Source: Klebsiella phage vB_KpnP_PRA33
Direction: 5' to 3' (one strand)
Sequence record: KY652723.1
Length of the DNA stretch: 40,605 bases
Of this stretch, positions 407 to 38,235 are shown one piece after another; within the stretch, counting starts at the first letter, position 1; the number at the start of each line of letters is the position of its first letter. Both the position numbers and the translations under genes were made by a program. The notes below the pieces were generated by a model that was not told the origin of the DNA, searched no databases, and saw nothing but the letters and a program-made list of their open reading frames with translations.

Positions 407-429
407 AATTAGGTATCACTATAGGGAGA
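407..429 (+). promoter_or_regulatory. Phage RNAP promoter, phiOL-like (AATTAGGTATCACTATAGGGAGA; one mismatch at -8)
   Basis: Matches the 23-bp phage promoter consensus seen 12 more times in the window. Its position upstream of gene 0.3 matches T7 phiOL. Confidence 0.6.
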
Positions 430-2974: not shown

Positions 2975-5695
2975 ATGAACGCATTAAACATTGCACGTAA
3001 TGACTTCTCAGAGATTGAACTAGCCGCTATTCCGTACAACATCCTCAGCGAGCACTACGGGGACAAGCTGGCACGTGAGCAGTTAACGCTCGAACATGAA
3101 GCGTACGAGCTGGGCGAGCAGCGTTTCCTGAAGATGCTGGAACGTCAGGTTAAAGCTGGTGAGTTCGCTGACAACGTGGCCGCCAAGCCGCTGGTCTTAA
3201 CGCTGCATCCACAGTTAACCAAACGTATTAACGATTGGAAAGAGGAGCAAGCAACCGCACGTGGTAAGAAGCCTCGCGCATACTATCCGATTAAGCATGG
3301 CGTGGCCTCAGAGTTAGCCCTAAGCATGGGCGCTGAGGTACTCAACGAGAAGCGCGGAGTGTCCAGTGAGGCAATCGCACTGCTGACCATTAAGGTCGTC
3401 TTAGGGACGCTCACAGATGCCTCTAAGGCCACCATCCAGCAGGTATCCTCTCAGTTAGGCAAGGCCCTTGAGGATGAGGCCCGCTTCGGTCGTATCCGTG
3501 AGCAGGAGGCCGCCTACTTCAAGAAGAACGTAGCGGACCAGCTGGACAAGCGCGTAGGCCACGTGTACAAGAAGGCTTTCATGCAGGTAGTCGAGGCCGA
3601 TATGATATCCAAAGGGATGCTTGGTGGGGACAACTGGGCGAGCTGGAAGACCGACGAGCAGATGCACGTAGGGACCAAGCTGTTGGAGCTACTCATTGAG
3701 GGGACTGGTCTGGTGGAGATGACCAAGAACAAGATGGCCGATGGCTCGGACGATGTGACCAGTATGCAAATGGTCCAGCTGGCTCCGGCCTTTGTGGAAC
3801 TCCTGAGTAAACGAGCGGGCGCACTTGCAGGTATCAGTCCTATGTACCAACCGTGCGTAGTCCCTCCGAAACCTTGGGTTGGGACCGTAGGCGGTGGCTA
3901 CTGGTCAGTCGGTCGTCGCCCGCTGGTACTGGTGCGTACCCACTCCAAGAAAGCACTGCGCCGCTATGAAGACGTGCACATGCCTGAGGTATACAAAGCG
4001 GTCAACCTCGCGCAAAACACACCGTGGAAGGTGAACAAGAAGGTGCTGGCGGTAGTCAACGAGATTGTCAACTGGAAGCACTGCCCGGTTGCTGACGTCC
4101 CAGCGATTGAACGCGAAGAGTTACCACCACGCCCAGACGATATCGACACCAACGAGGTGGCACGTAAGGCATGGCGCAAGGAGGCAGCAGCGGTGTACCG
4201 TAAGGACAAGGCCCGACAGTCTCGCCGTTTGTCAATGGAGTTCATGGTCGCACAGGCCAACAAGTTCGCTAACCATAAGGCCATTTGGTTCCCGTACAAC
4301 ATGGACTGGCGCGGACGTGTGTACGCTGTGAGCATGTTCAACCCTCAGGGTAACGACATGACCAAAGGTATGCTGACGCTGGCCAAGGGCAAACCAATCG
4401 GTCTCGATGGGTTCTACTGGCTGAAGATTCATGGTGCAAACTGTGCAGGCGTCGATAAGGTTCCCTTCCCTGAGCGCATCAAGTTCATCGAAGAGAACGA
4501 GGGTAACATTCTGGCGAGCGCAGCCGACCCGCTGAATAACACTTGGTGGACTAAGCAAGATTCACCGTTCTGCTTCTTAGCGTTCTGCTTTGAGTACGCA
4601 GGAGTTAAACATCACGGCCTGAATTACAACTGTTCGCTGCCGCTGGCGTTCGATGGGTCCTGCTCTGGGATTCAACATTTCAGTGCGATGCTCCGCGATT
4701 CTATCGGTGGCCGTGCGGTTAACCTGCTGCCTTCTGATACCGTGCAGGATATCTACAAGATTGTTGCCGACAAGGTTAACGAGGTGCTCAAGCAGCACGT
4801 TGTCAACGGGTCCCAGACGGTGGTCGAGCAGATTGCCGACAAGGATACAGGTGAGTTCCGCGAGAAGGTAACGCTGGGTGAGTCCGTACTGGCTGCGCAG
4901 TGGTTGCAATATGGTGTTACTCGCAAGGTGACTAAGCGTTCAGTCATGACGTTGGCGTATGGTTCCAAAGAGTTCGGCTTCCGCCAGCAAGTTCTTGAGG
5001 ACACCATTCAACCTGCTATTGACAACGGTGAGGGCTTGATGTTCACCCACCCGAACCAAGCGGCTGGCTACATGGCTAAGCTGATTTGGGACGCTGTGAC
5101 CGTGACCGTGGTGGCCGCTGTCGAAGCGATGAACTGGCTGAAGTCTGCCGCTAAGCTACTGGCCGCTGAGGTCAAGGACAAGAAGACCAAAGAGGTACTT
5201 CGTAAGCGCTGCGCAATCCACTGGGTAACACCAGACGGCTTCCCGGTGTGGCAGGAATACCACAAGCGCGACCAAGCGCGCCTGAAGCTAACGTTCTTAG
5301 GTCAGGCCAACGTGTTCATGACGTACAACAAAGGGGACACCAAAGAGATTGACGCGCACAAGCAAGAGTCGGGCATCGCGCCTAACTTTGTGCACTCACA
5401 GGATGGTAGTCACCTGCGCATGACCGTAGTGCACGCTAACGAGGTCTACGGGATTGACTCCTTCGCGCTCATTCACGACTCCTTCGGGACCATTCCGGCA
5501 GACGCTGGGAATCTCTTTAAGGCAGTCCGTGAGACGATGGTCAAGACCTACGAGGACAACGATGTGATTGCAGACTTCTATGACCAGTTCGCTGACCAGC
5601 TGCACGAGTCTCAGCTCGATAAAATGCCAGAAGTTCCGGCCAAAGGCGACCTTAATCTGCGCGATATCTTAGAGTCTGACTTCGCGTTCGCCTAA
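2975..5695 (+). CDS. 1: Single-subunit DNA-directed RNA polymerase (T7 gene 1 homolog)
   Basis: 906 aa with near-complete alignment to T7 RNAP (MN..NIA.NDFS.IELAAIP.N......YG..LAREQL.LEHE.YE.GE.RF.KM.ERQ.KAGE.ADN.AAKPL...; ...HKQESGIAPNFVHSQDGSHLR...; C-terminal ...RDILESDFAFA). Confidence 0.98.
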   Translation: MNALNIARNDFSEIELAAIPYNILSEHYGDKLAREQLTLEHEAYELGEQRFLKMLERQVKAGEFADNVAAKPLVLTLHPQLTKRINDWKEEQATARGKKPRAYYPIKHGVASELALSMGAEVLNEKRGVSSEAIALLTIKVVLGTLTDASKATIQQVSSQLGKALEDEARFGRIREQEAAYFKKNVADQLDKRVGHVYKKAFMQVVEADMISKGMLGGDNWASWKTDEQMHVGTKLLELLIEGTGLVEMTKNKMADGSDDVTSMQMVQLAPAFVELLSKRAGALAGISPMYQPCVVPPKPWVGTVGGGYWSVGRRPLVLVRTHSKKALRRYEDVHMPEVYKAVNLAQNTPWKVNKKVLAVVNEIVNWKHCPVADVPAIEREELPPRPDDIDTNEVARKAWRKEAAAVYRKDKARQSRRLSMEFMVAQANKFANHKAIWFPYNMDWRGRVYAVSMFNPQGNDMTKGMLTLAKGKPIGLDGFYWLKIHGANCAGVDKVPFPERIKFIEENEGNILASAADPLNNTWWTKQDSPFCFLAFCFEYAGVKHHGLNYNCSLPLAFDGSCSGIQHFSAMLRDSIGGRAVNLLPSDTVQDIYKIVADKVNEVLKQHVVNGSQTVVEQIADKDTGEFREKVTLGESVLAAQWLQYGVTRKVTKRSVMTLAYGSKEFGFRQQVLEDTIQPAIDNGEGLMFTHPNQAAGYMAKLIWDAVTVTVVAAVEAMNWLKSAAKLLAAEVKDKKTKEVLRKRCAIHWVTPDGFPVWQEYHKRDQARLKLTFLGQANVFMTYNKGDTKEIDAHKQESGIAPNFVHSQDGSHLRMTVVHANEVYGIDSFALIHDSFGTIPADAGNLFKAVRETMVKTYEDNDVIADFYDQFADQLHESQLDKMPEVPAKGDLNLRDILESDFAFA

Positions 5696-5705
5696 GGCCT
5701 CCAGC

Positions 5706-5728
5706 AATTAGGTAGCACTATAGGGAAC
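5706..5728 (+). promoter_or_regulatory. Phage promoter (phi1.1A-like)
   Basis: AATTAGGTAGCACTATAGGGAAC, followed by the hairpin GGAACCTTCGAATGACAGAGGGTTCC and an AT-rich ACTTAAAG x3 tract. Confidence 0.8.
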
Positions 5729-5793
5729 CTTCGAATGACAGAGGGTTCCATTACTTAAAGTCTTAACTTAAAGAATACTTAAAGAGGCACGCT

Positions 5794-6357
5794 ATGACTT
5801 ACTCAATCGTTGTAACCATCTTGTTAATCATCGTCACAGCACTCTTCATTAGCGCCATACGGGACTCACTACGCAGTGAGGAGCGATTGCAGCGCACGGT
5901 CCGAGAGGCCAACTCCGCGTTCAACAGCGAGTCCTGCAAGGTCCTGCGACTGGCAGACAAAGCTGACTCGCTCAGTAGACAGGTTCGTTACTTAGAGGGC
6001 GAGCTTGAGAGTGAGAAACAGAAGGTGCGCGACGTGAATGAACTCCGAGCGCACCAACGGGACCGCATGAAGTTCCTGCGCAAGCAGCTGAAGGAAGCAC
6101 AAGACGAGCTGATGATGGTCTCCGACCTGATTCACGTTAAGTTCACCGCAGTGTTGCCAGACGGTACCCACTCCAAGACGCTCTTTAAGTTAGGACTTGG
6201 CCCGTGTGGTCTCCACGTTAAGTCCCTCCGCTGGACAGAGCTGGATGACCGCTACCTGATAGACCAGCTGTGCACCAACGGTGAGCGCAAGCAGTTCGTC
6301 TACTACAAGAGCGAAGTAGTAGGACGCATCGAATTCCGCCACGGTAAGTCTGAATAA
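5794..6357 (+). CDS. Hypothetical membrane-anchored coiled-coil protein (no T7 counterpart; 1.05-like position)
   Basis: 187 aa with an N-terminal TM helix (IVVTILLIIVTALFISAI), then a heptad-rich charged segment (about 30-110) and a C-terminal globular part. Sits between two phage promoters. RBS AAAGAGG. Confidence 0.6.
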   Translation: MTYSIVVTILLIIVTALFISAIRDSLRSEERLQRTVREANSAFNSESCKVLRLADKADSLSRQVRYLEGELESEKQKVRDVNELRAHQRDRMKFLRKQLKEAQDELMMVSDLIHVKFTAVLPDGTHSKTLFKLGLGPCGLHVKSLRWTELDDRYLIDQLCTNGERKQFVYYKSEVVGRIEFRHGKSE

Positions 6358-6376
6358 GGTAGCACTATAGGAACAT
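6354..6376 (+). promoter_or_regulatory. Phage promoter (phi1.1B-like, class II, imperfect)
   Basis: AATAAGGTAGCACTATAGGAACA. Confidence 0.65.
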
Positions 6377-6416
6377 ACTCAAGGTCATCACGTTTGGTGG
6401 CCTTCATGAATGTCCC
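6376..6416 (+). promoter_or_regulatory. RNase III-type processing hairpin (R1.1-like)
   Basis: ACTCAAGGTCATC...GGTGGCCTTCATGAATG. Member of a 5-copy family sharing ACTCAAGGT...GGCCTTTATGATT. Confidence 0.5.
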
Positions 6417-6442
6417 TTACTATCGCAATCAGGAGCAACATC

Positions 6443-6619
6443 ATGTACCAGAACACAATCAACTTTGAGCGCAACCGTGAACGCCAGCAGACTGAAGGCT
6501 ATATCCCTAAAGGCCGCAAGCTGAACAAGACAAAGCGTGGTGGCGGCGTTAAGGGTTCCTTCCGTAACGCCAAGGGTGACAGCGTTGTTAACCAAGAGAA
6601 ATATTTCGTAGGAGCGTAA
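6443..6619 (+). CDS. 1.1: gp1.1-like small basic protein
   Basis: Internal Met with AGGAG RBS. KGRKLNKTKR matches T7 gp1.1 (…TKGRKLNKTKRDRS…). Confidence 0.6.
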   Translation: MYQNTINFERNRERQQTEGYIPKGRKLNKTKRGGGVKGSFRNAKGDSVVNQEKYFVGA

Positions 6620-6622
6620 CAA

Positions 6623-6889
6623 ATGGCTGAGCAAACTAAATGGCTGTTCGATGGCAGCACTTCACAGTGGTCAAGGCTGGGTCACACAGAGCGCAGGTTG
6701 ATGGACGAGACGGGACTACGTGTAATCATGACGTACCGCCCATTCAACCGCACAGTGCTATTCTCTGTGTATGAACCTCGACCGGACTACGACGAGGTGC
6801 TCGTGGAGAAGTCCTTCAGCCGCTGGTCGATTGACTCAGCGTCAGATTGGCTGGCAAAACTAACAGCCGACTACTCAAGTTGGAAATGA
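6623..6889 (+). CDS. 1.2: gp1.2-like protein (T7 gp1.2 inhibits host dGTPase Dgt)
   Basis: 88 aa (T7 85 aa). C-terminal DWL...L.D..WK resemblance and syntenic position. Confidence 0.5.
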   Translation: MAEQTKWLFDGSTSQWSRLGHTERRLMDETGLRVIMTYRPFNRTVLFSVYEPRPDYDEVLVEKSFSRWSIDSASDWLAKLTADYSSWK

Positions 6890-6911
6890 TTAGGTAGCAC
6901 TATAGGCAGAC
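6889..6911 (+). promoter_or_regulatory. Phage promoter (phi1.3-like)
   Basis: GATTAGGTAGCACTATAGGCAGA. Confidence 0.7.
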
Positions 6912-6955
6912 TCAAGGTCATCGGATTCCGGTGGCCTTTATGATTGCTTATTGCA
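6909..6955 (+). promoter_or_regulatory. RNase III-type processing hairpin (R1.3-like)
   Basis: ACTCAAGGTCATCGGATTCCGGTGGCCTTTATGATT. Confidence 0.5.
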
Positions 6956-6989
6956 CACTAAATGAACACTACACTTCGGAGACATCACC

Positions 6990-8015
6990 ATGATGAACAT
7001 TAAGACCAACCCCTTTAAGGCCGTATCGTTCGTTCGCTCTGCTATCGAGAAGGCGCTGGAGACTTCCGGTTATCTCATCGCAGACACTAAGCACGATGGC
7101 GTACGCGGGAACATCTGCGTAGACAACACGGCAAACGTAGCGTGGCTCAGCCGGGTCTCCAAGACCATTCCGGCCCTTGAGCACCTCAATGGTTTCGGCG
7201 CTCGTTGGCAGAAGTTACTGAAGGACGACCGTTGGATTTTCCCGGATGGCTTTATGCTGGATGGTGAACTCATGGTCAAGGGTGTGGACTTCAACACTGG
7301 GTCCGGCCTGCTGCGCACTAAGTGGCTGAAAGCTAAGAACTATGAGTTCTCAACATACGCCATTGAGAAAGAGTGGGATAACCCTAAGGGTAAAGTACCG
7401 TTCCACCTCAATAGTGCCGACCTCAAAGTTGTCCTCTACGATATCATTCCGCTTGACATTATCGAGTCCGGTGATGACTACAACGTGATGACCCTGCTGC
7501 GCCTTGAGCACGTCAAGATAGCTTTACCAGTCCTGCAAGACCACTTCCCTGAAGTCGAGTGGTGCCTCTCAGAGTCCCATGAAGTTTACGACATGGACGA
7601 ACTCGATGCGCTGTACCGACAGAAACGCGAAGAAGGTCACGAAGGCCTCGTGGTTAAGGACCCTCGGGGCATCTACAAGCGCGGTAAGAAGTCCGGCTGG
7701 TTCAAGTGCAAGCCGAACGATGAAGCCGATGGAATCATTCAGGGAGTCAATTGGGGCACTCCCGGTCTTGCAAACGAGGGCAAAGTCATCGGGTTCTCTG
7801 TGCTTCTTGAGACAGGTCGTTTAGTAGACGCCAACAACATCTCTCGCGCACTGATGGATGAATTTACTGCCAACGTTAAGGAACACGGCGAGGAATACTA
7901 TAATGGCTGGTCTTGCCAGATTGGCTATATGGAGGAGACGAAAGATGGTTCATTGCGGCATCCCTCATTCACCTGCTTCAGGGGAACTGAGGACAACCCA
8001 AGCGAGAAAATATAA
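6990..8015 (+). CDS. 1.3: ATP-dependent DNA ligase
   Basis: 341 aa. MMNIKTNPFKAVSFV..AI.KAL...GYLIA..K.DGVRGNICVDNTAN..WLSRVSKTIPALEHLNGF...is near-identical in pattern to the T7 ligase N-terminus, with adenylation Lys in K.DG. The C-terminus ...YMEETKDGSLRHPSF..FRGTEDNP also matches T7. Confidence 0.96.
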   Translation: MMNIKTNPFKAVSFVRSAIEKALETSGYLIADTKHDGVRGNICVDNTANVAWLSRVSKTIPALEHLNGFGARWQKLLKDDRWIFPDGFMLDGELMVKGVDFNTGSGLLRTKWLKAKNYEFSTYAIEKEWDNPKGKVPFHLNSADLKVVLYDIIPLDIIESGDDYNVMTLLRLEHVKIALPVLQDHFPEVEWCLSESHEVYDMDELDALYRQKREEGHEGLVVKDPRGIYKRGKKSGWFKCKPNDEADGIIQGVNWGTPGLANEGKVIGFSVLLETGRLVDANNISRALMDEFTANVKEHGEEYYNGWSCQIGYMEETKDGSLRHPSFTCFRGTEDNPSEKI

Positions 8016-8113: not shown

Positions 8114-8136
8114 AATTAGGTAGCACTATAGGAGAC
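8114..8136 (+). promoter_or_regulatory. Phage promoter (phi1.5-like)
   Basis: AATTAGGTAGCACTATAGGAGAC. Confidence 0.7.
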
Positions 8137-8143
8137 AACAACA

Positions 8144-8230
8144 TGTCCATCAATCTGATTCTAATCATCGTGTTCATCCTCGCGGCTATCGTGTGGTCAA
8201 TGAACGACGAGCCACCTAAAGGAGCATAAC
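8144..8230 (+). CDS. Small hydrophobic protein (1.5 position)
   Basis: 28-aa [31 protein letters not shown], directly downstream of the promoter. Confidence 0.35.
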
Positions 8231-37145: not shown

Positions 37146-37349
37146 ATGTTGTCCCTAGACTTCAACAATGAAGTTATCAAGGCGGCCCCCATCGCGGGGG
37201 TCGCTGGGGCTGACGGTGTAGCGAGGCTCTTTTGGGGCCTCTCACTCAACGAGTGGTTCTACGTCGCGGCAATCGCCTACACAGTGGTTCAGATTGGTGC
37301 CAAGGTAGTCGATAAAATCATTGACTGGAAGAAAGCTAATAAGGAGTAA
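37146..37349 (+). CDS. 17.5: Holin (class II, gp17.5)
   Basis: 67 aa. MLSLDFNNE.IKAAPI.G....D...RLF.GLSLNEWFYVAAIAYTVVQI..KVVDK.IDWKKANKE is near-identical to T7 gp17.5 (67 aa). Confidence 0.9.
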   Translation: MLSLDFNNEVIKAAPIAGVAGADGVARLFWGLSLNEWFYVAAIAYTVVQIGAKVVDKIIDWKKANKE

Positions 37350-37352
37350 CGT

Positions 37353-37607
37353 ATGGACCTGATTAAGTTCCTCGAAATGTTAGACACTGAGATGGCGCAG
37401 CAGATGCTCATGGACCTGAAGAATCCAGATAAGCGGACCCCTCAGCTGTACAACGCCATTGGTAAACTACTGGAGCGCCACAAGTTCCAAATCTCTAAGC
37501 TGACCCCTGACGTTAACATCTTGGGCGGACTGGCTGAGGGTCTGGAGGCTTACAACTCCAAGGTGGGCGCTGATGGTCTGACAGAAGACGATAAATACAC
37601 TCACTGA
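37353..37607 (+). CDS. 18: Terminase small subunit (gp18)
   Basis: 84 aa. ...FLEMLDT.MAQ.ML.DL.......PQLYNAI.KLL.RHKFQI.KL.PDV.ILGGLA..LE.Y...VG..GLT.DD.YT matches T7 gp18. Confidence 0.85.
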   Translation: MDLIKFLEMLDTEMAQQMLMDLKNPDKRTPQLYNAIGKLLERHKFQISKLTPDVNILGGLAEGLEAYNSKVGADGLTEDDKYTH

Positions 37608-37608
37608 T

Positions 37609-37650
37609 GGTAATACTCAAGGTTCCTGAGGGAGCCTTTATGGATTATCA
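37609..37650 (+). promoter_or_regulatory. RNase III-type processing hairpin (R18.5-like)
   Basis: ACTCAAGGTTCCTGAGGGAGCCTTTATGGATTATC. Confidence 0.45.
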
Positions 37651-37666
37651 ATAGTAGGAGAACAAA

Positions 37667-37780
37667 ATGAACTGGATGTTATTCTGGATTATCGTAGACG
37701 TGGTGTTTGCGGTAGGTCTACTCGTCACCATAACTAGTAGCAGCCCTAGGGCTAGTCACTATGAAGACGGTGCAGGTTAG
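37667..37780 (+). CDS. Hypothetical small membrane protein between genes 18 and 18.5
   Basis: 37 aa MNWMLFWIIVDVVFAVGLLVTITSSSPRASHYEDGAG. T7 has no gene here. Confidence 0.3.
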   Translation: MNWMLFWIIVDVVFAVGLLVTITSSSPRASHYEDGAG

Positions 37781-37788
37781 GAGGCATT

Positions 37789-38235
37789 ATGCTGGAAATT
37801 ACAAAGAGAATAGTACCGTATCTTGTGGTTATCATGGTGTTCGCCTTCGGGTGGCACTTCGGTTCACAATCTATGGACACCAAGTGGAAGGAGGTAGTAC
37901 AGAATGAGTACGTTAAGAAGCAAACGGCTAGAGCTGAAACTCAGAAAGCGATTGACGCAGTATCGGCTAAGTACCAAGCAGACCTTGAAGGGCTGGAAGG
38001 CAGCACTGATAGGATTATTGCTGATTTGCGTAGCGACAATAAGCGGTTGCGCGTCAAAGTCAAACCTACCAGTGTCCCCGCAGGACCAGACGGTCGATGC
38101 CTCGTTGATGGTTCCGTCGAACTACACGAAGCAACTGCTCGAAGTCTTATCGCAATAACTAAGAAGGCCGACCTCAAAGAGAAGGCCCTACAGGACACTA
38201 TTCGTAAGCTACAGCGGAAAGGAGGTGAACATTGA
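37789..38235 (+). CDS. 18.5: i-spanin (Rz-like, gp18.5)
   Basis: 148 aa with an N-terminal TM. ML.....I.P......VFAFGWH.GS.SMD.KWK..V.NEYVK.......[37 protein letters not shown]... Confidence 0.85.
37985..38158 (+). CDS. 18.7: o-spanin (Rz1-like lipoprotein, gp18.7) embedded in the +1 frame of Rz
   Basis: TTG-initiated [22 protein letters not shown] has a lipobox (ISGC) followed by a Pro-rich mature part. The frame is open from 37904 if an upstream ATG is used instead. Confidence 0.6.
   Translation: MKGWKAALIGLLLICVATISGCASKSNLPVSPQDQTVDASLMVPSNYTKQLLEVLSQ

What the first reader, a model, noticed from the sequence alone, without database searches (positions are those of the whole stretch)
5794..6357. 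187-aa membrane-anchored coiled-coil protein inserted between the two phi1.1 promoters at the presumed primary replication origin
In T7 the phi1.1A and phi1.1B promoters are about 75 bp apart, with the primary origin just downstream. Here the two promoter copies (5706-5728 and 6354-6376) are separated by a well-formed gene: RBS AAAGAGG, an N-terminal TM helix, an about 80-residue charged heptad region and a C-terminal domain. A hairpin and an AT-rich ACTTAAAG x3 tract precede it. It has no T7 counterpart. A membrane-tethered coiled-coil protein expressed from a class II promoter is a good candidate for superinfection exclusion, host-defence interference or replication-complex anchoring.
Basis: partly seen in the sequence, partly recalled or inferred. 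Interest (0 to 1): 0.6.

Follow-up and report, generated by a model that had tools for sequence, protein, structure and literature searches.

The report
Gene 1.05 of a K11-like phage
The ORF is real, but it is the already annotated, dispensable gene 1.05 of K11-like Klebsiella phages: a membrane-anchored stalk carrying a small conserved domain whose function is still unknown.

Summary
ORF 5794-6357 (187 aa) lies between two phage promoters (5706-5728 and 6353-6375). A 9-bp hairpin and three ACTTAAAG copies precede it.

It is not new. The window is a K11-like Klebsiella phage (Przondovirus). The K11 GenBank record annotates the same gene as "gp1.05 fusion protein" between promoters phi1.05 and phi1.1. 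Residues 112-182 match Pfam PF25755 (T3 gene 1.05 protein, E 1e-26).

Across 88 family representatives, the long form (membrane helix, helical stalk, beta domain) is the commonest. T3's 90-aa form is a minority. Flanking charges predict that the stalk and domain face the cytoplasm.

AlphaFold (pLDDT 96) gives one helix (2-108) and a six-stranded beta domain. No solved structure matches it. The beta domain is under strong purifying selection (dN/dS about 0.03-0.05). The stalk is variable and mosaic.

The gene is dispensable. Roughly one in five K11-like genomes lack this version of the domain. Four laboratory-evolved phage isolates lost exactly the 647-bp promoter-to-promoter segment.

Relative to T7 this is not a simple insertion, because the two promoter modules are in swapped order.

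Function is unknown. My best guess is a conditionally useful, membrane-tethered binding module. Interest is low.

The parts
5706..5728 (+). Phage RNA polymerase promoter phi1.05 (AATTAGGTAGCACTATAGGGAAC). It is a class II-type variant of the window's late-gene consensus, which ends GGGAGA.
   Evidence: The homologous site is annotated 'promoter phi1.05' in K11, T3 and Kvp1.
5724..5749 (+). 9-bp hairpin at the 5' end of the phi1.05 transcript (GGAACCUUC ... GAGGGUUCC).
   Evidence: -18.9 kcal/mol for 5723-5800, z = -2.8. T3, Kvp1, JSS2 and T7 (after phi1.1B) have a hairpin at the same place.
5750..5787 (+). AT-rich tract with three ACTTAAAG copies (5753, 5766, 5777). The last copy overlaps the Shine-Dalgarno sequence AAAGAGG (5781-5787). 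By homology it is the counterpart of the T3 and T7 primary-origin AT-rich region. It is also the translation leader of gene 1.05.
   Evidence: It aligns with the T3 stretch annotated rep_origin and with the T7 AT-rich region after phi1.1B. It is the least variable piece of the locus in 46 relatives (nucleotide diversity 0.03-0.11). The motif also recurs behind other promoters.
5794..6357 (+). Gene 1.05 CDS, 187 aa, of the long 'fusion' form.
   Evidence: PHROG 6440 matches full length, E 1.3e-97. The region 5650-6450 is 93% identical in DNA to a K11-species genome record (CAVLHH020000002.1). The K11 record EU734173 annotates the gene as 'gp1.05 fusion protein'. dN/dS is below 1 along the whole gene.
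5803..5859 (+). N-terminal membrane helix, residues 4-22. Predicted topology is N-terminus outside and C-terminus in the cytoplasm.
   Evidence: Hydropathy. In 52 family representatives with a membrane helix, K+R averages 0.04 before the helix and 3.35 in the 15 residues after it.
5860..6117 (+). Charged alpha-helical stalk, residues 23-108, heptad-compatible. Residues 14-85 are variable and mosaic among relatives.
   Evidence: (helix 2-108, pLDDT 96). There are at least 3 deeply diverged allelic types. dN/dS is 0.2-0.6.
6127..6342 (+). C-terminal beta domain, residues 112-183, Pfam PF25755 (Phage_T3_1_05). It has six strands. G134, C138, G139, Q158 and G177 are invariant.
   Evidence: dN/dS is 0.03-0.05. 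No PDB structural match at E <= 1e-3.
6353..6375 (+). Promoter phi1.1 (AATAAGGTAGCACTATAGGAACA), overlapping the gene 1.05 stop codon. It forms a direct repeat with phi1.05, and recombination between the two deletes the gene.
   Evidence: Deletion junctions in phages 175025 and K74_evo5 lie within the shared promoter core.
6381..6404 (+). 10-bp hairpin homologous to the R1.1 RNase III site of T3 and to the T7 hairpin that follows phi1.1A.
   Evidence: T3 annotates the aligned stem-loop as RNase III site R1.1.
6443..6619 (+). Gene 1.1 (58 aa), the next gene downstream. It gives the context that defines the 1.05 slot.
   Evidence: It matches the length and position of K11 gp1.1.

Best explanation
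**Shown**
- ORF 5794-6357 is gene 1.05 of a K11-like Klebsiella phage (Przondovirus).
- It is the first gene behind promoter phi1.05, and its leader is the origin-like AT-rich tract.
- The product is a long-form member of the PF25755 (T3 gp1.05) family: an N-terminal membrane helix, an alpha-helical stalk of about 85 residues, and a 70-residue six-stranded beta domain.
- The beta domain is the strongly conserved unit. The stalk is variable.
- The gene is accessory. It sits between two 23-bp promoter repeats and is lost by recombination between them, in nature and in the laboratory.

**Inferred**
- The protein spans the inner membrane once, with a few N-terminal residues outside. The stalk and beta domain lie in the cytoplasm, probably as an oligomer.
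- The beta domain binds a cytoplasmic partner, either a host protein or a nucleic acid. The anchor holds that partner at the membrane.
- The benefit is conditional, depending on host or competition. That fits the host-takeover and counter-defence genes around it (0.7, 1.2). It is not a core replication function.
For: **Identity**
- Pfam PF25755 scores 92.8 bits against a cut-off of 27. PHROG 6440 matches full length.
- K11, T3 and Kvp1 annotate gene 1.05 in the same slot between gene 1 and gene 1.1, with phi1.05 and phi1.1 on either side.

**Architecture**
- The AlphaFold2 model built on 89 family sequences has mean pLDDT 96.1. It shows helix 2-108 and strands 112-183.
- Of 88 representatives, 45 have membrane helix + long linker + domain. 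Seven have membrane helix + short linker. Sixteen have no membrane helix but an N-terminal extension. Twenty are domain only.

**Topology**
- K+R is 0.04 before the helix and 3.35 after it across 52 representatives.
- Family members without a membrane helix must be cytoplasmic.
- The window's true i-spanin (37789-38235) has the opposite charge pattern.

**Selection**
- dN/dS is 0.03-0.05 in the beta domain and 0.2-0.6 in the stalk.

**Dispensability**
- Exact promoter-to-promoter deletions occur in phage 175025 and in K74_evo1/2/3/5. The K74 ancestor has the 187-aa ORF.
- Other deletion forms occur in SH-Kp 152410 and Kpn16-P3.
- The published evolution experiment reports parallel deletions in these variants, associated with faster amplification (PMC12654880).
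- About 309 records have the K11-type domain, against about 384 with the K11-type RNA polymerase 3' end.
Against: - No partner, activity or phenotype is known.
- The beta domain has no detectable relative of known function. Foldseek against the PDB finds nothing at E <= 1e-3. The PDB sequence profile gives only coiled-coil noise. BFVD returns only uncharacterised phage proteins.
- Topology rests on the positive-inside rule only.
- Oligomerisation was not modelled.
- The enhanced-amplification phenotype in the evolved phages cannot be assigned to loss of 1.05, because other segments were deleted too.
- I found no sign of positive selection, which an arms-race role would often leave. dN/dS is below 1 everywhere.
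Confidence: 0.5

Rival explanations
1. Replication organiser. Like phi29 p16.7, gp1.05 would tether replicating phage DNA or the origin region to the inner membrane. Both have a membrane helix, a coiled coil and a C-terminal binding domain.
For: - The overall architecture is the same (the p16.7 architecture is from my own knowledge).
- The gene starts at the end of the origin-like AT tract. In T3 the annotated primary origin overlaps the start of gene 1.05.
- The AT tract and the first 35 nt of the ORF are the most conserved DNA of the locus.
Against: - Phages that lost both the gene and the AT tract are viable and were picked up in an evolution experiment.
- T7 replicates without any 1.05 gene.
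- About 20 of 88 family representatives are the bare domain, with no anchor.
- The domain is near neutral (12 K/R, 10 D/E).
- It has no significant match to DNA-binding folds.
- The C-terminal domain is beta-rich, unlike the helical one of p16.7.
Confidence: 0.12
2. Envelope-acting protein. It would work either in superinfection exclusion or as a lysis accessory. In that case the coiled coil and beta domain would lie in the periplasm, in a spanin-like or Sie-like arrangement.
For: - A membrane helix plus coiled coil resembles i-spanins and several exclusion proteins. There are weak generic hits to DivIC, LapA and DUF948-type membrane-helix coiled-coil families.
- Most long forms carry two cysteines in the domain (C138, C160) that could form a disulfide outside the cytoplasm.
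Against: - The charge distribution predicts the opposite topology.
- C160 is replaced by H or T in many members, including T3.
- Forms without a membrane helix or signal peptide must be cytoplasmic.
- There is no embedded lipoprotein ORF.
- The window has its own holin and spanin pair at 37146-38235.
- The gene is in the early/middle region, not the lysis cassette.
Confidence: 0.12
3. The ORF matters mainly as DNA, not through its protein. It would serve as a spacer or cis-acting extension of the origin and promoter region.
For: - The first 13 codons have unusually low synonymous divergence (pS 0.11 against 0.29-0.58 elsewhere).
- The gene is flanked by regulatory elements on both sides.
Against: - dN/dS is 0.03-0.05 over 75 codons of the beta domain while synonymous sites diverge 0.25-0.29.
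- The protein domain is conserved at 30-55% identity across genera whose DNA is unalignable.
- The AlphaFold model is very confident.
Confidence: 0.03

Closest known systems
Klebsiella phage K11 gp1.05 'fusion protein' (ACF15838.1, EU734173) and the KP32 'fusion protein' (D1L2T8)
   Same: It is the same gene. It has the same slot between phi1.05 and phi1.1, the same length (186-187 aa) and the same three-part architecture. The region 5650-6450 is 93% identical in DNA to a K11-species genome record (CAVLHH020000002.1). PHROG 6440 matches full length.
   Different: Only allelic differences, concentrated in the variable stalk (residues 14-85). KP32 carries a different stalk type: 68% overall identity, but 97% in the beta domain.
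Phage T3 / phiYeO3-12 gene 1.05 protein (Pfam PF25755)
   Same: It has a homologous beta domain with the FKLGLGPCG ... GRIE motifs, 41% identity. The genome position is the same, behind phi1.05 and the annotated primary origin and before phi1.1 and R1.1.
   Different: T3 gp1.05 is 90 aa, with no membrane helix and no stalk. It has only a 17-residue basic amphipathic N-terminus. The long form seen here is the commoner one in the family.
T7 phi1.1A / phi1.1B primary-origin region
   Same: It has the same building blocks: a promoter with a hairpin and AT-rich ACTTTAAG-type tract, and a promoter with the R1.1 hairpin, followed by gene 1.1.
   Different: T7 has no gene 1.05, and the two modules are in the opposite order. 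In T7, promoter + R1.1 comes first and promoter + AT tract directly precedes gene 1.1. Natural variant SH-Kp 152410 joins the AT leader directly to gene 1.1, as in the promoter-proximal part of the T7 layout.
Bacillus phage phi29 p16.7 (membrane organiser of phage DNA replication)
   Same: It works like a possible analogue. It is an early, dispensable protein with an N-terminal membrane helix, a coiled coil and a cytoplasmic C-terminal binding domain. The p16.7 properties are from my own knowledge, not tested here.
   Different: There is no sequence or fold relationship. The p16.7 C-terminal domain is helical and binds DNA. Here it is a six-stranded beta domain with no evidence of DNA binding.
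i-spanins (lambda Rz, T7 gp18.5)
   Same: An N-terminal membrane helix followed by a long coiled coil.
   Different: The predicted topology is opposite. There is no embedded or adjacent o-spanin gene. The gene is early/middle rather than in the lysis cassette. The window has its own spanin pair.

Membership tests
PF25755 Phage_T3_1_05 (T3 gene 1.05 protein family) | Match to the family HMM above Pfam's gathering score | tested here: met
   92.8 bits against a cut-off of 27, E 1.3e-26, residues 112-182 covering profile positions 2-72 of 73. All 89 aligned relatives also match.
PF25755 Phage_T3_1_05 (T3 gene 1.05 protein family) | Conserved core motifs (F-K-L-G-x-G-P-C-G, Q-x-C/H-x-D-G, G-R-I-E) | tested here: met
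   G134, C138, G139, Q158 and G177 are invariant. F131, G136, K166, F168, Y170 and R178 are conserved in at least 90% of 89 sequences.
PF25755 Phage_T3_1_05 (T3 gene 1.05 protein family) | Position between gene 1 (RNA polymerase) and gene 1.1, flanked by promoters phi1.05 and phi1.1 | tested here: met
   Window layout. K11, T3 and Kvp1 records are annotated the same way.
PF25755 Phage_T3_1_05 (T3 gene 1.05 protein family) | T3-like short, soluble architecture (about 90 aa) | tested here: not met
   The protein is 187 aa with a membrane helix and a stalk. This is not a family requirement: 52 of 88 representatives have a membrane helix.
K11-type gp1.05 'fusion protein' (PHROG 6440) | Full-length homology and the same three-part architecture | tested here: met
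   PHROG 6440 E 1.3e-97 over residues 1-185. 120 listed homologues at 67-96% identity, nearly all 186-187 aa. Foldseek BFVD top hit is the KP32 fusion protein, TM 0.75.
i-spanin (Rz / T7 gp18.5) | Type II topology (N-terminus in, C-terminus out), with positive charges before the membrane helix | tested here: not met
   There is no K/R before the helix, and the K/R-rich flank lies after it, both in the window protein and across the family. The window's gp18.5-like protein has K6 and R7 before its helix.
i-spanin (Rz / T7 gp18.5) | Partner o-spanin lipoprotein gene embedded or adjacent, and location in the lysis cassette | tested here: not met
   No lipobox ORF lies inside or next to 5794-6357. 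The real pair is at 37789-38235 and 37904-38158.
phi29 p16.7-like membrane replication organiser | Membrane helix + coiled coil + cytoplasmic C-terminal domain | tested here: met
   This is architecture only.
phi29 p16.7-like membrane replication organiser | Homologous, DNA-binding C-terminal domain | tested here: inconclusive
   No DNA-binding fold or family was detected. The domain is beta-rich and near neutral. p16.7 itself was not compared directly, and DNA binding cannot be tested with these tools.
Superinfection exclusion proteins | Blocks entry of a second phage. This is a functional definition with no shared sequence signature. | not testable with these tools
   It needs an exclusion assay with cells expressing gp1.05.

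The most novel reading that the evidence does not exclude
The PF25755 beta domain is a so-far unrecognised small fold with an invariant cysteine loop (G-x-G-P-C-G). It would capture a specific cytoplasmic host factor, for example a defence or stress-response protein. The membrane-anchored long form would inactivate that factor by sequestering it at the inner membrane. This would be a widespread, conditionally beneficial counter-defence or host-takeover module of T7-like phages. Its variable stalk alleles would reflect host-specific tuning.
Probability: 0.2. Interest if true: 0.5.

Novelty: already known. Interest (0 to 1): 0.22.

Why it matters
K11-like phages are among the commonest candidates for phage therapy against Klebsiella. 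Gene 1.05 is one of their conserved genes of unknown function.

Two practical points follow from this analysis:
- The gene is a promoter-flanked cassette that is dispensable and readily lost. That makes the slot a natural place for payload insertion. It is also a known source of genome instability during phage production.
- The conserved unit is the 70-residue beta domain, which narrows any functional study to a small target.

The finding does not open a long-standing question. It mainly confirms and refines an existing annotation.

Tried and rejected
- **Function by homology.** Pfam, PHROGs, NCBIfam and PADLOC gave only PF25755, PHROGs of unknown function, and generic coiled-coil noise.
- **Literature.** No paper in the library characterises gp1.05. 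It appears only in genome tables. The T3 and phiYeO3-12 genome and essentiality papers were not held.
- **Positive selection in the variable stalk.** Rejected. dN/dS is 0.2-0.45 within allelic types.
- **Alternative membrane targeting in non-anchored forms.** I asked whether all family members without a membrane helix carry an amphipathic N-terminal helix instead. Support is weak: T3 and 3 others, 4 of 37. Basic C-terminal tails are enriched in forms without a membrane helix (13 of 36 against 6 of 51), but their role is unclear.
- **Spanin reading.** Rejected on topology, absence of an o-spanin partner, and the presence of the true lysis cassette elsewhere.
- **ACTTAAAG as an origin-specific repeat.** Rejected as unique to the origin, because the motif recurs in leaders behind other promoters.

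Full report
**What the window is**

The region 5650-6450 matches 382 phage records at 80-99% DNA identity. Almost all are Klebsiella phages of the genus Przondovirus, the K11-like T7 relatives. Upstream of the ORF lies a 906-aa T7-type RNA polymerase gene (2975-5695). Downstream lie gene 1.1, gene 1.2 and the DNA ligase gene.

**Check of the observation**

- The ORF 5794-6357 (+) encodes 187 aa. AAAGAGG sits 6 nt upstream of the ATG.
- The 23-mer at 5706-5728 is one of ten sites matching the window's promoter consensus, against none expected by chance.
It overlaps the stop codon.
- The transcript from the first promoter begins with a 9-bp hairpin (5724-5749; z = -2.8).
- That hairpin is followed by three exact ACTTAAAG copies in a tract of 33% GC.
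- Residues 4-22 are strongly hydrophobic and uncharged. Residues 23-110 are 42% charged and heptad-compatible.

So the description is accurate.

**Identity**

- Residues 112-182 match Pfam PF25755, 'Enterobacteria phage T3 gene 1.05 protein', at 92.8 bits against a cut-off of 27.
- The whole protein matches PHROG 6440, E 1.3e-97.
- The GenBank record of phage K11 annotates the homologous ORF as gene 1.05, 'gp1.05 fusion protein'. It also annotates the flanking promoters phi1.05 and phi1.1.
- KP32 and other records use 'fusion protein' too.
- T3 and Kvp1 have gene 1.05 in the same slot.

The gene is already known as an annotated gene of unknown function.

**Relation to T7 and the origin**

- The T3 record annotates the primary origin of replication as the 77 bp just downstream of phi1.05, overlapping the start of gene 1.05.
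- In a six-way alignment, the hairpin and ACTTAAAG tract behind the window's first promoter align with that T3 stretch. They also align with the AT-rich region that follows T7 phi1.1B.
- The window's second promoter and its 10-bp hairpin (6381-6404) align with T3 phi1.1 plus the annotated RNase III site R1.1. They also align with T7 phi1.1A and the hairpin behind it.
- The layouts therefore differ in order:
  - T7: promoter + R1.1, then promoter + AT tract, then gene 1.1.
  - This phage: promoter + AT tract, then gene 1.05, then promoter + R1.1, then gene 1.1.
- So this is not a gene dropped between two otherwise T7-like promoters. That the tract is an origin here is inference from homology.
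- The tract is also an ordinary leader element. ACTTAAAG occurs 16 times in the window against 1.2 expected, mostly 25-50 nt behind other phage promoters and often abutting the ribosome-binding site.

**The family**

- An exhaustive HMMER search of 1.84 billion representative proteins found only 98 clusters.
- After removing fragments, all 88, together with the window protein (89 sequences in all), match PF25755.
- They sort into four architectures:

| Architecture | Representatives |
|---|---|
| Membrane helix + long linker + domain | 45 |
| Membrane helix + short linker + domain | 7 |
| No membrane helix, N-terminal extension of at least 40 residues | 16 |
| Domain only | 20 |

- The long form is the commonest. 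'Fusion' is a T3-centred name.
- The invariant residues are G134, C138, G139, Q158 and G177.
- In the phage collection the domain turns up in 526 records. Foldseek against predicted viral structures finds the same fold only in uncharacterised proteins, the significant hits being phages of the T7 group (Klebsiella, Salmonella, Pectobacterium, Pseudomonas, Ralstonia, Delftia and others).

**Structure and topology**

- AlphaFold2 with the 89-sequence alignment gives mean pLDDT 96.1. The model is one continuous helix (2-108) and a six-stranded antiparallel beta domain (112-183).
- No solved structure matches at E <= 1e-3. The best weak hits are miscellaneous small beta-barrels.
- In the 52 representatives with a membrane helix, the stretch before the helix has almost no K/R (mean 0.04). 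The 15 residues after it have 3.35.
- By the positive-inside rule, the stalk and domain are cytoplasmic. This fits the existence of family members with no membrane helix or signal peptide.
- The window's real i-spanin (37789-38235, with an embedded lipoprotein ORF at 37904-38158) shows the opposite charge pattern.

**Selection**

I compared 46 Przondovirus copies.

| Region (residues) | dN/dS |
|---|---|
| Beta domain (111-185) | 0.03-0.05 |
| 86-110 | 0.16-0.21 |
| 49-85 | 0.21-0.26 |
| 14-48 | 0.39-0.59 |

- Residues 14-85 fall into at least three deeply diverged allelic types, with mosaics between them. Nucleotide diversity there is 0.4-0.55.
- The AT tract and the first 35 nt of the ORF are the least variable DNA of the locus (0.03-0.13).
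- The protein is therefore real and selected. The beta domain is the constrained part and the stalk is loosely constrained.
- There is no sign of positive selection.

**Dispensability**

Several close relatives lack the gene.

- Phage 175025 and four laboratory-evolved isolates (K74_evo1, 2, 3 and 5) carry an exact deletion from promoter to promoter. It leaves one hybrid promoter followed by R1.1 and gene 1.1.
- The ancestor, K74PH129C2, has the 187-aa ORF and is 647 bp longer here. That equals the promoter spacing in the window.
- The paper describing that experiment reports parallel deletions in these variants, associated with enhanced amplification. Other segments were deleted as well, so the effect cannot be assigned to 1.05 (PMC12654880).
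- SH-Kp 152410 joins the AT leader directly to the gene 1.1 start codon, which resembles the promoter-proximal part of the T7 layout.
- Kpn16-P3 has an in-frame deletion that leaves 37 codons.
- Metagenomic fragments show similar events (P0164 and P0203).
- About 309 records have the K11-type domain at 80% amino-acid identity or more. About 384 have the K11-type polymerase 3' end. So roughly one genome in five lacks this version of the domain; the verified cases are losses, but not all were inspected.

**How it most likely works**

Shown:
- It is a class II-region gene behind its own promoter.
- It has a membrane helix, a long helix and a conserved autonomous beta domain.
- It is accessory, and it is flanked by repeats that delete it.

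Inferred:
- The protein is anchored in the inner membrane, with the stalk and domain in the cytoplasm.
- The domain binds a partner, and the anchor localises or sequesters that partner.
- The benefit is conditional. That would explain both the strong purifying selection in nature and the easy loss in culture.

I put about 0.5 on this general model. I give about 0.12 each to a phi29 p16.7-like replication-anchoring role and to an envelope or exclusion role. I give about 0.03 to a purely DNA-level role. The remaining probability covers roles I have not named.

**Verdict**

The additions from this analysis are:
- the swapped module order relative to T7;
- the finding that the long form is the family norm;
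- the predicted topology and fold;
- the selection profile along the gene;
- the documented cassette-like loss.

None of these is surprising to a specialist. Interest is low.

Noticed in passing
window 5753, 5766, 5777, 9203, 13267, 18145, 18156, 26094, 40119, 40457 (+); 432, 6183, 16332, 17068, 35482, 40148 (-): ACTTAAAG occurs 16 times against 1.2 expected. Most plus-strand copies lie 25-50 nt downstream of phage promoters and often abut the ribosome-binding site. The motif resembles the TTAACTTTAAG leader of T7-group genes. The promoters carrying it include those at the positions where T7 has origin-associated promoters (that correspondence is from my own knowledge).
   Followed up: partly
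window 8114-8229: The promoter at 8114-8136 is followed almost at once by a 28-aa, strongly hydrophobic micro-ORF (8143-8229, [28 protein letters not shown]). It could be a small membrane peptide.
   Followed up: no
window 407-429 and 464-486: Two tandem promoter-like sites (TCACTATAGG cores at 416 and 473) lie near the left end. AT-rich sequence follows, with an inverted ACTTAAAG copy at 432-439.
   Followed up: no
L053 (phage 175025) 535-655; L054 (K74_evo5) 535-660; L056 (SH-Kp 152410) 1235-1355; L055 (Kpn16-P3) 530-850: There are three independent ways of losing gene 1.05 in close relatives. One is recombination between the two promoter repeats. One is fusion of the AT leader to the gene 1.1 start codon, giving a T7-like layout. 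One is an in-frame internal deletion that leaves 37 codons.
   Followed up: yes
window 5833-6048 (codons 14-85) and loci L007-L051: The stalk-coding part exists as at least three deeply diverged allelic types with mosaic recombinants. It is bounded by near-invariant DNA on both sides. Synonymous divergence in the stalk (0.53-0.58) is about twice that of the flanks.
   Followed up: partly
family representatives P0121-P0218: Family members without a membrane helix often carry a basic C-terminal tail of 20 residues or more, ending in aromatic or hydrophobic residues (13 of 36, against 6 of 51 in membrane-helix forms). T3 gp1.05 has a basic amphipathic N-terminus. These may be alternative membrane- or nucleic-acid-binding segments.
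   Followed up: partly
window 37146-38235: This is an ordinary lysis cassette. It has a holin-like ORF at 37146-37349 and an i-spanin at 37789-38235. An embedded o-spanin at 37904-38158 carries the lipobox ISGC.
   Followed up: partly
window 6888-6990: A third promoter (6888-6910) is followed by a hairpin, AAGGTCATCGGATTCCGGTGGCCTT, that closely resembles the R1.1-like hairpin at 6381-6404. It is probably the R1.3 RNase III site ahead of the ligase gene.
   Followed up: no
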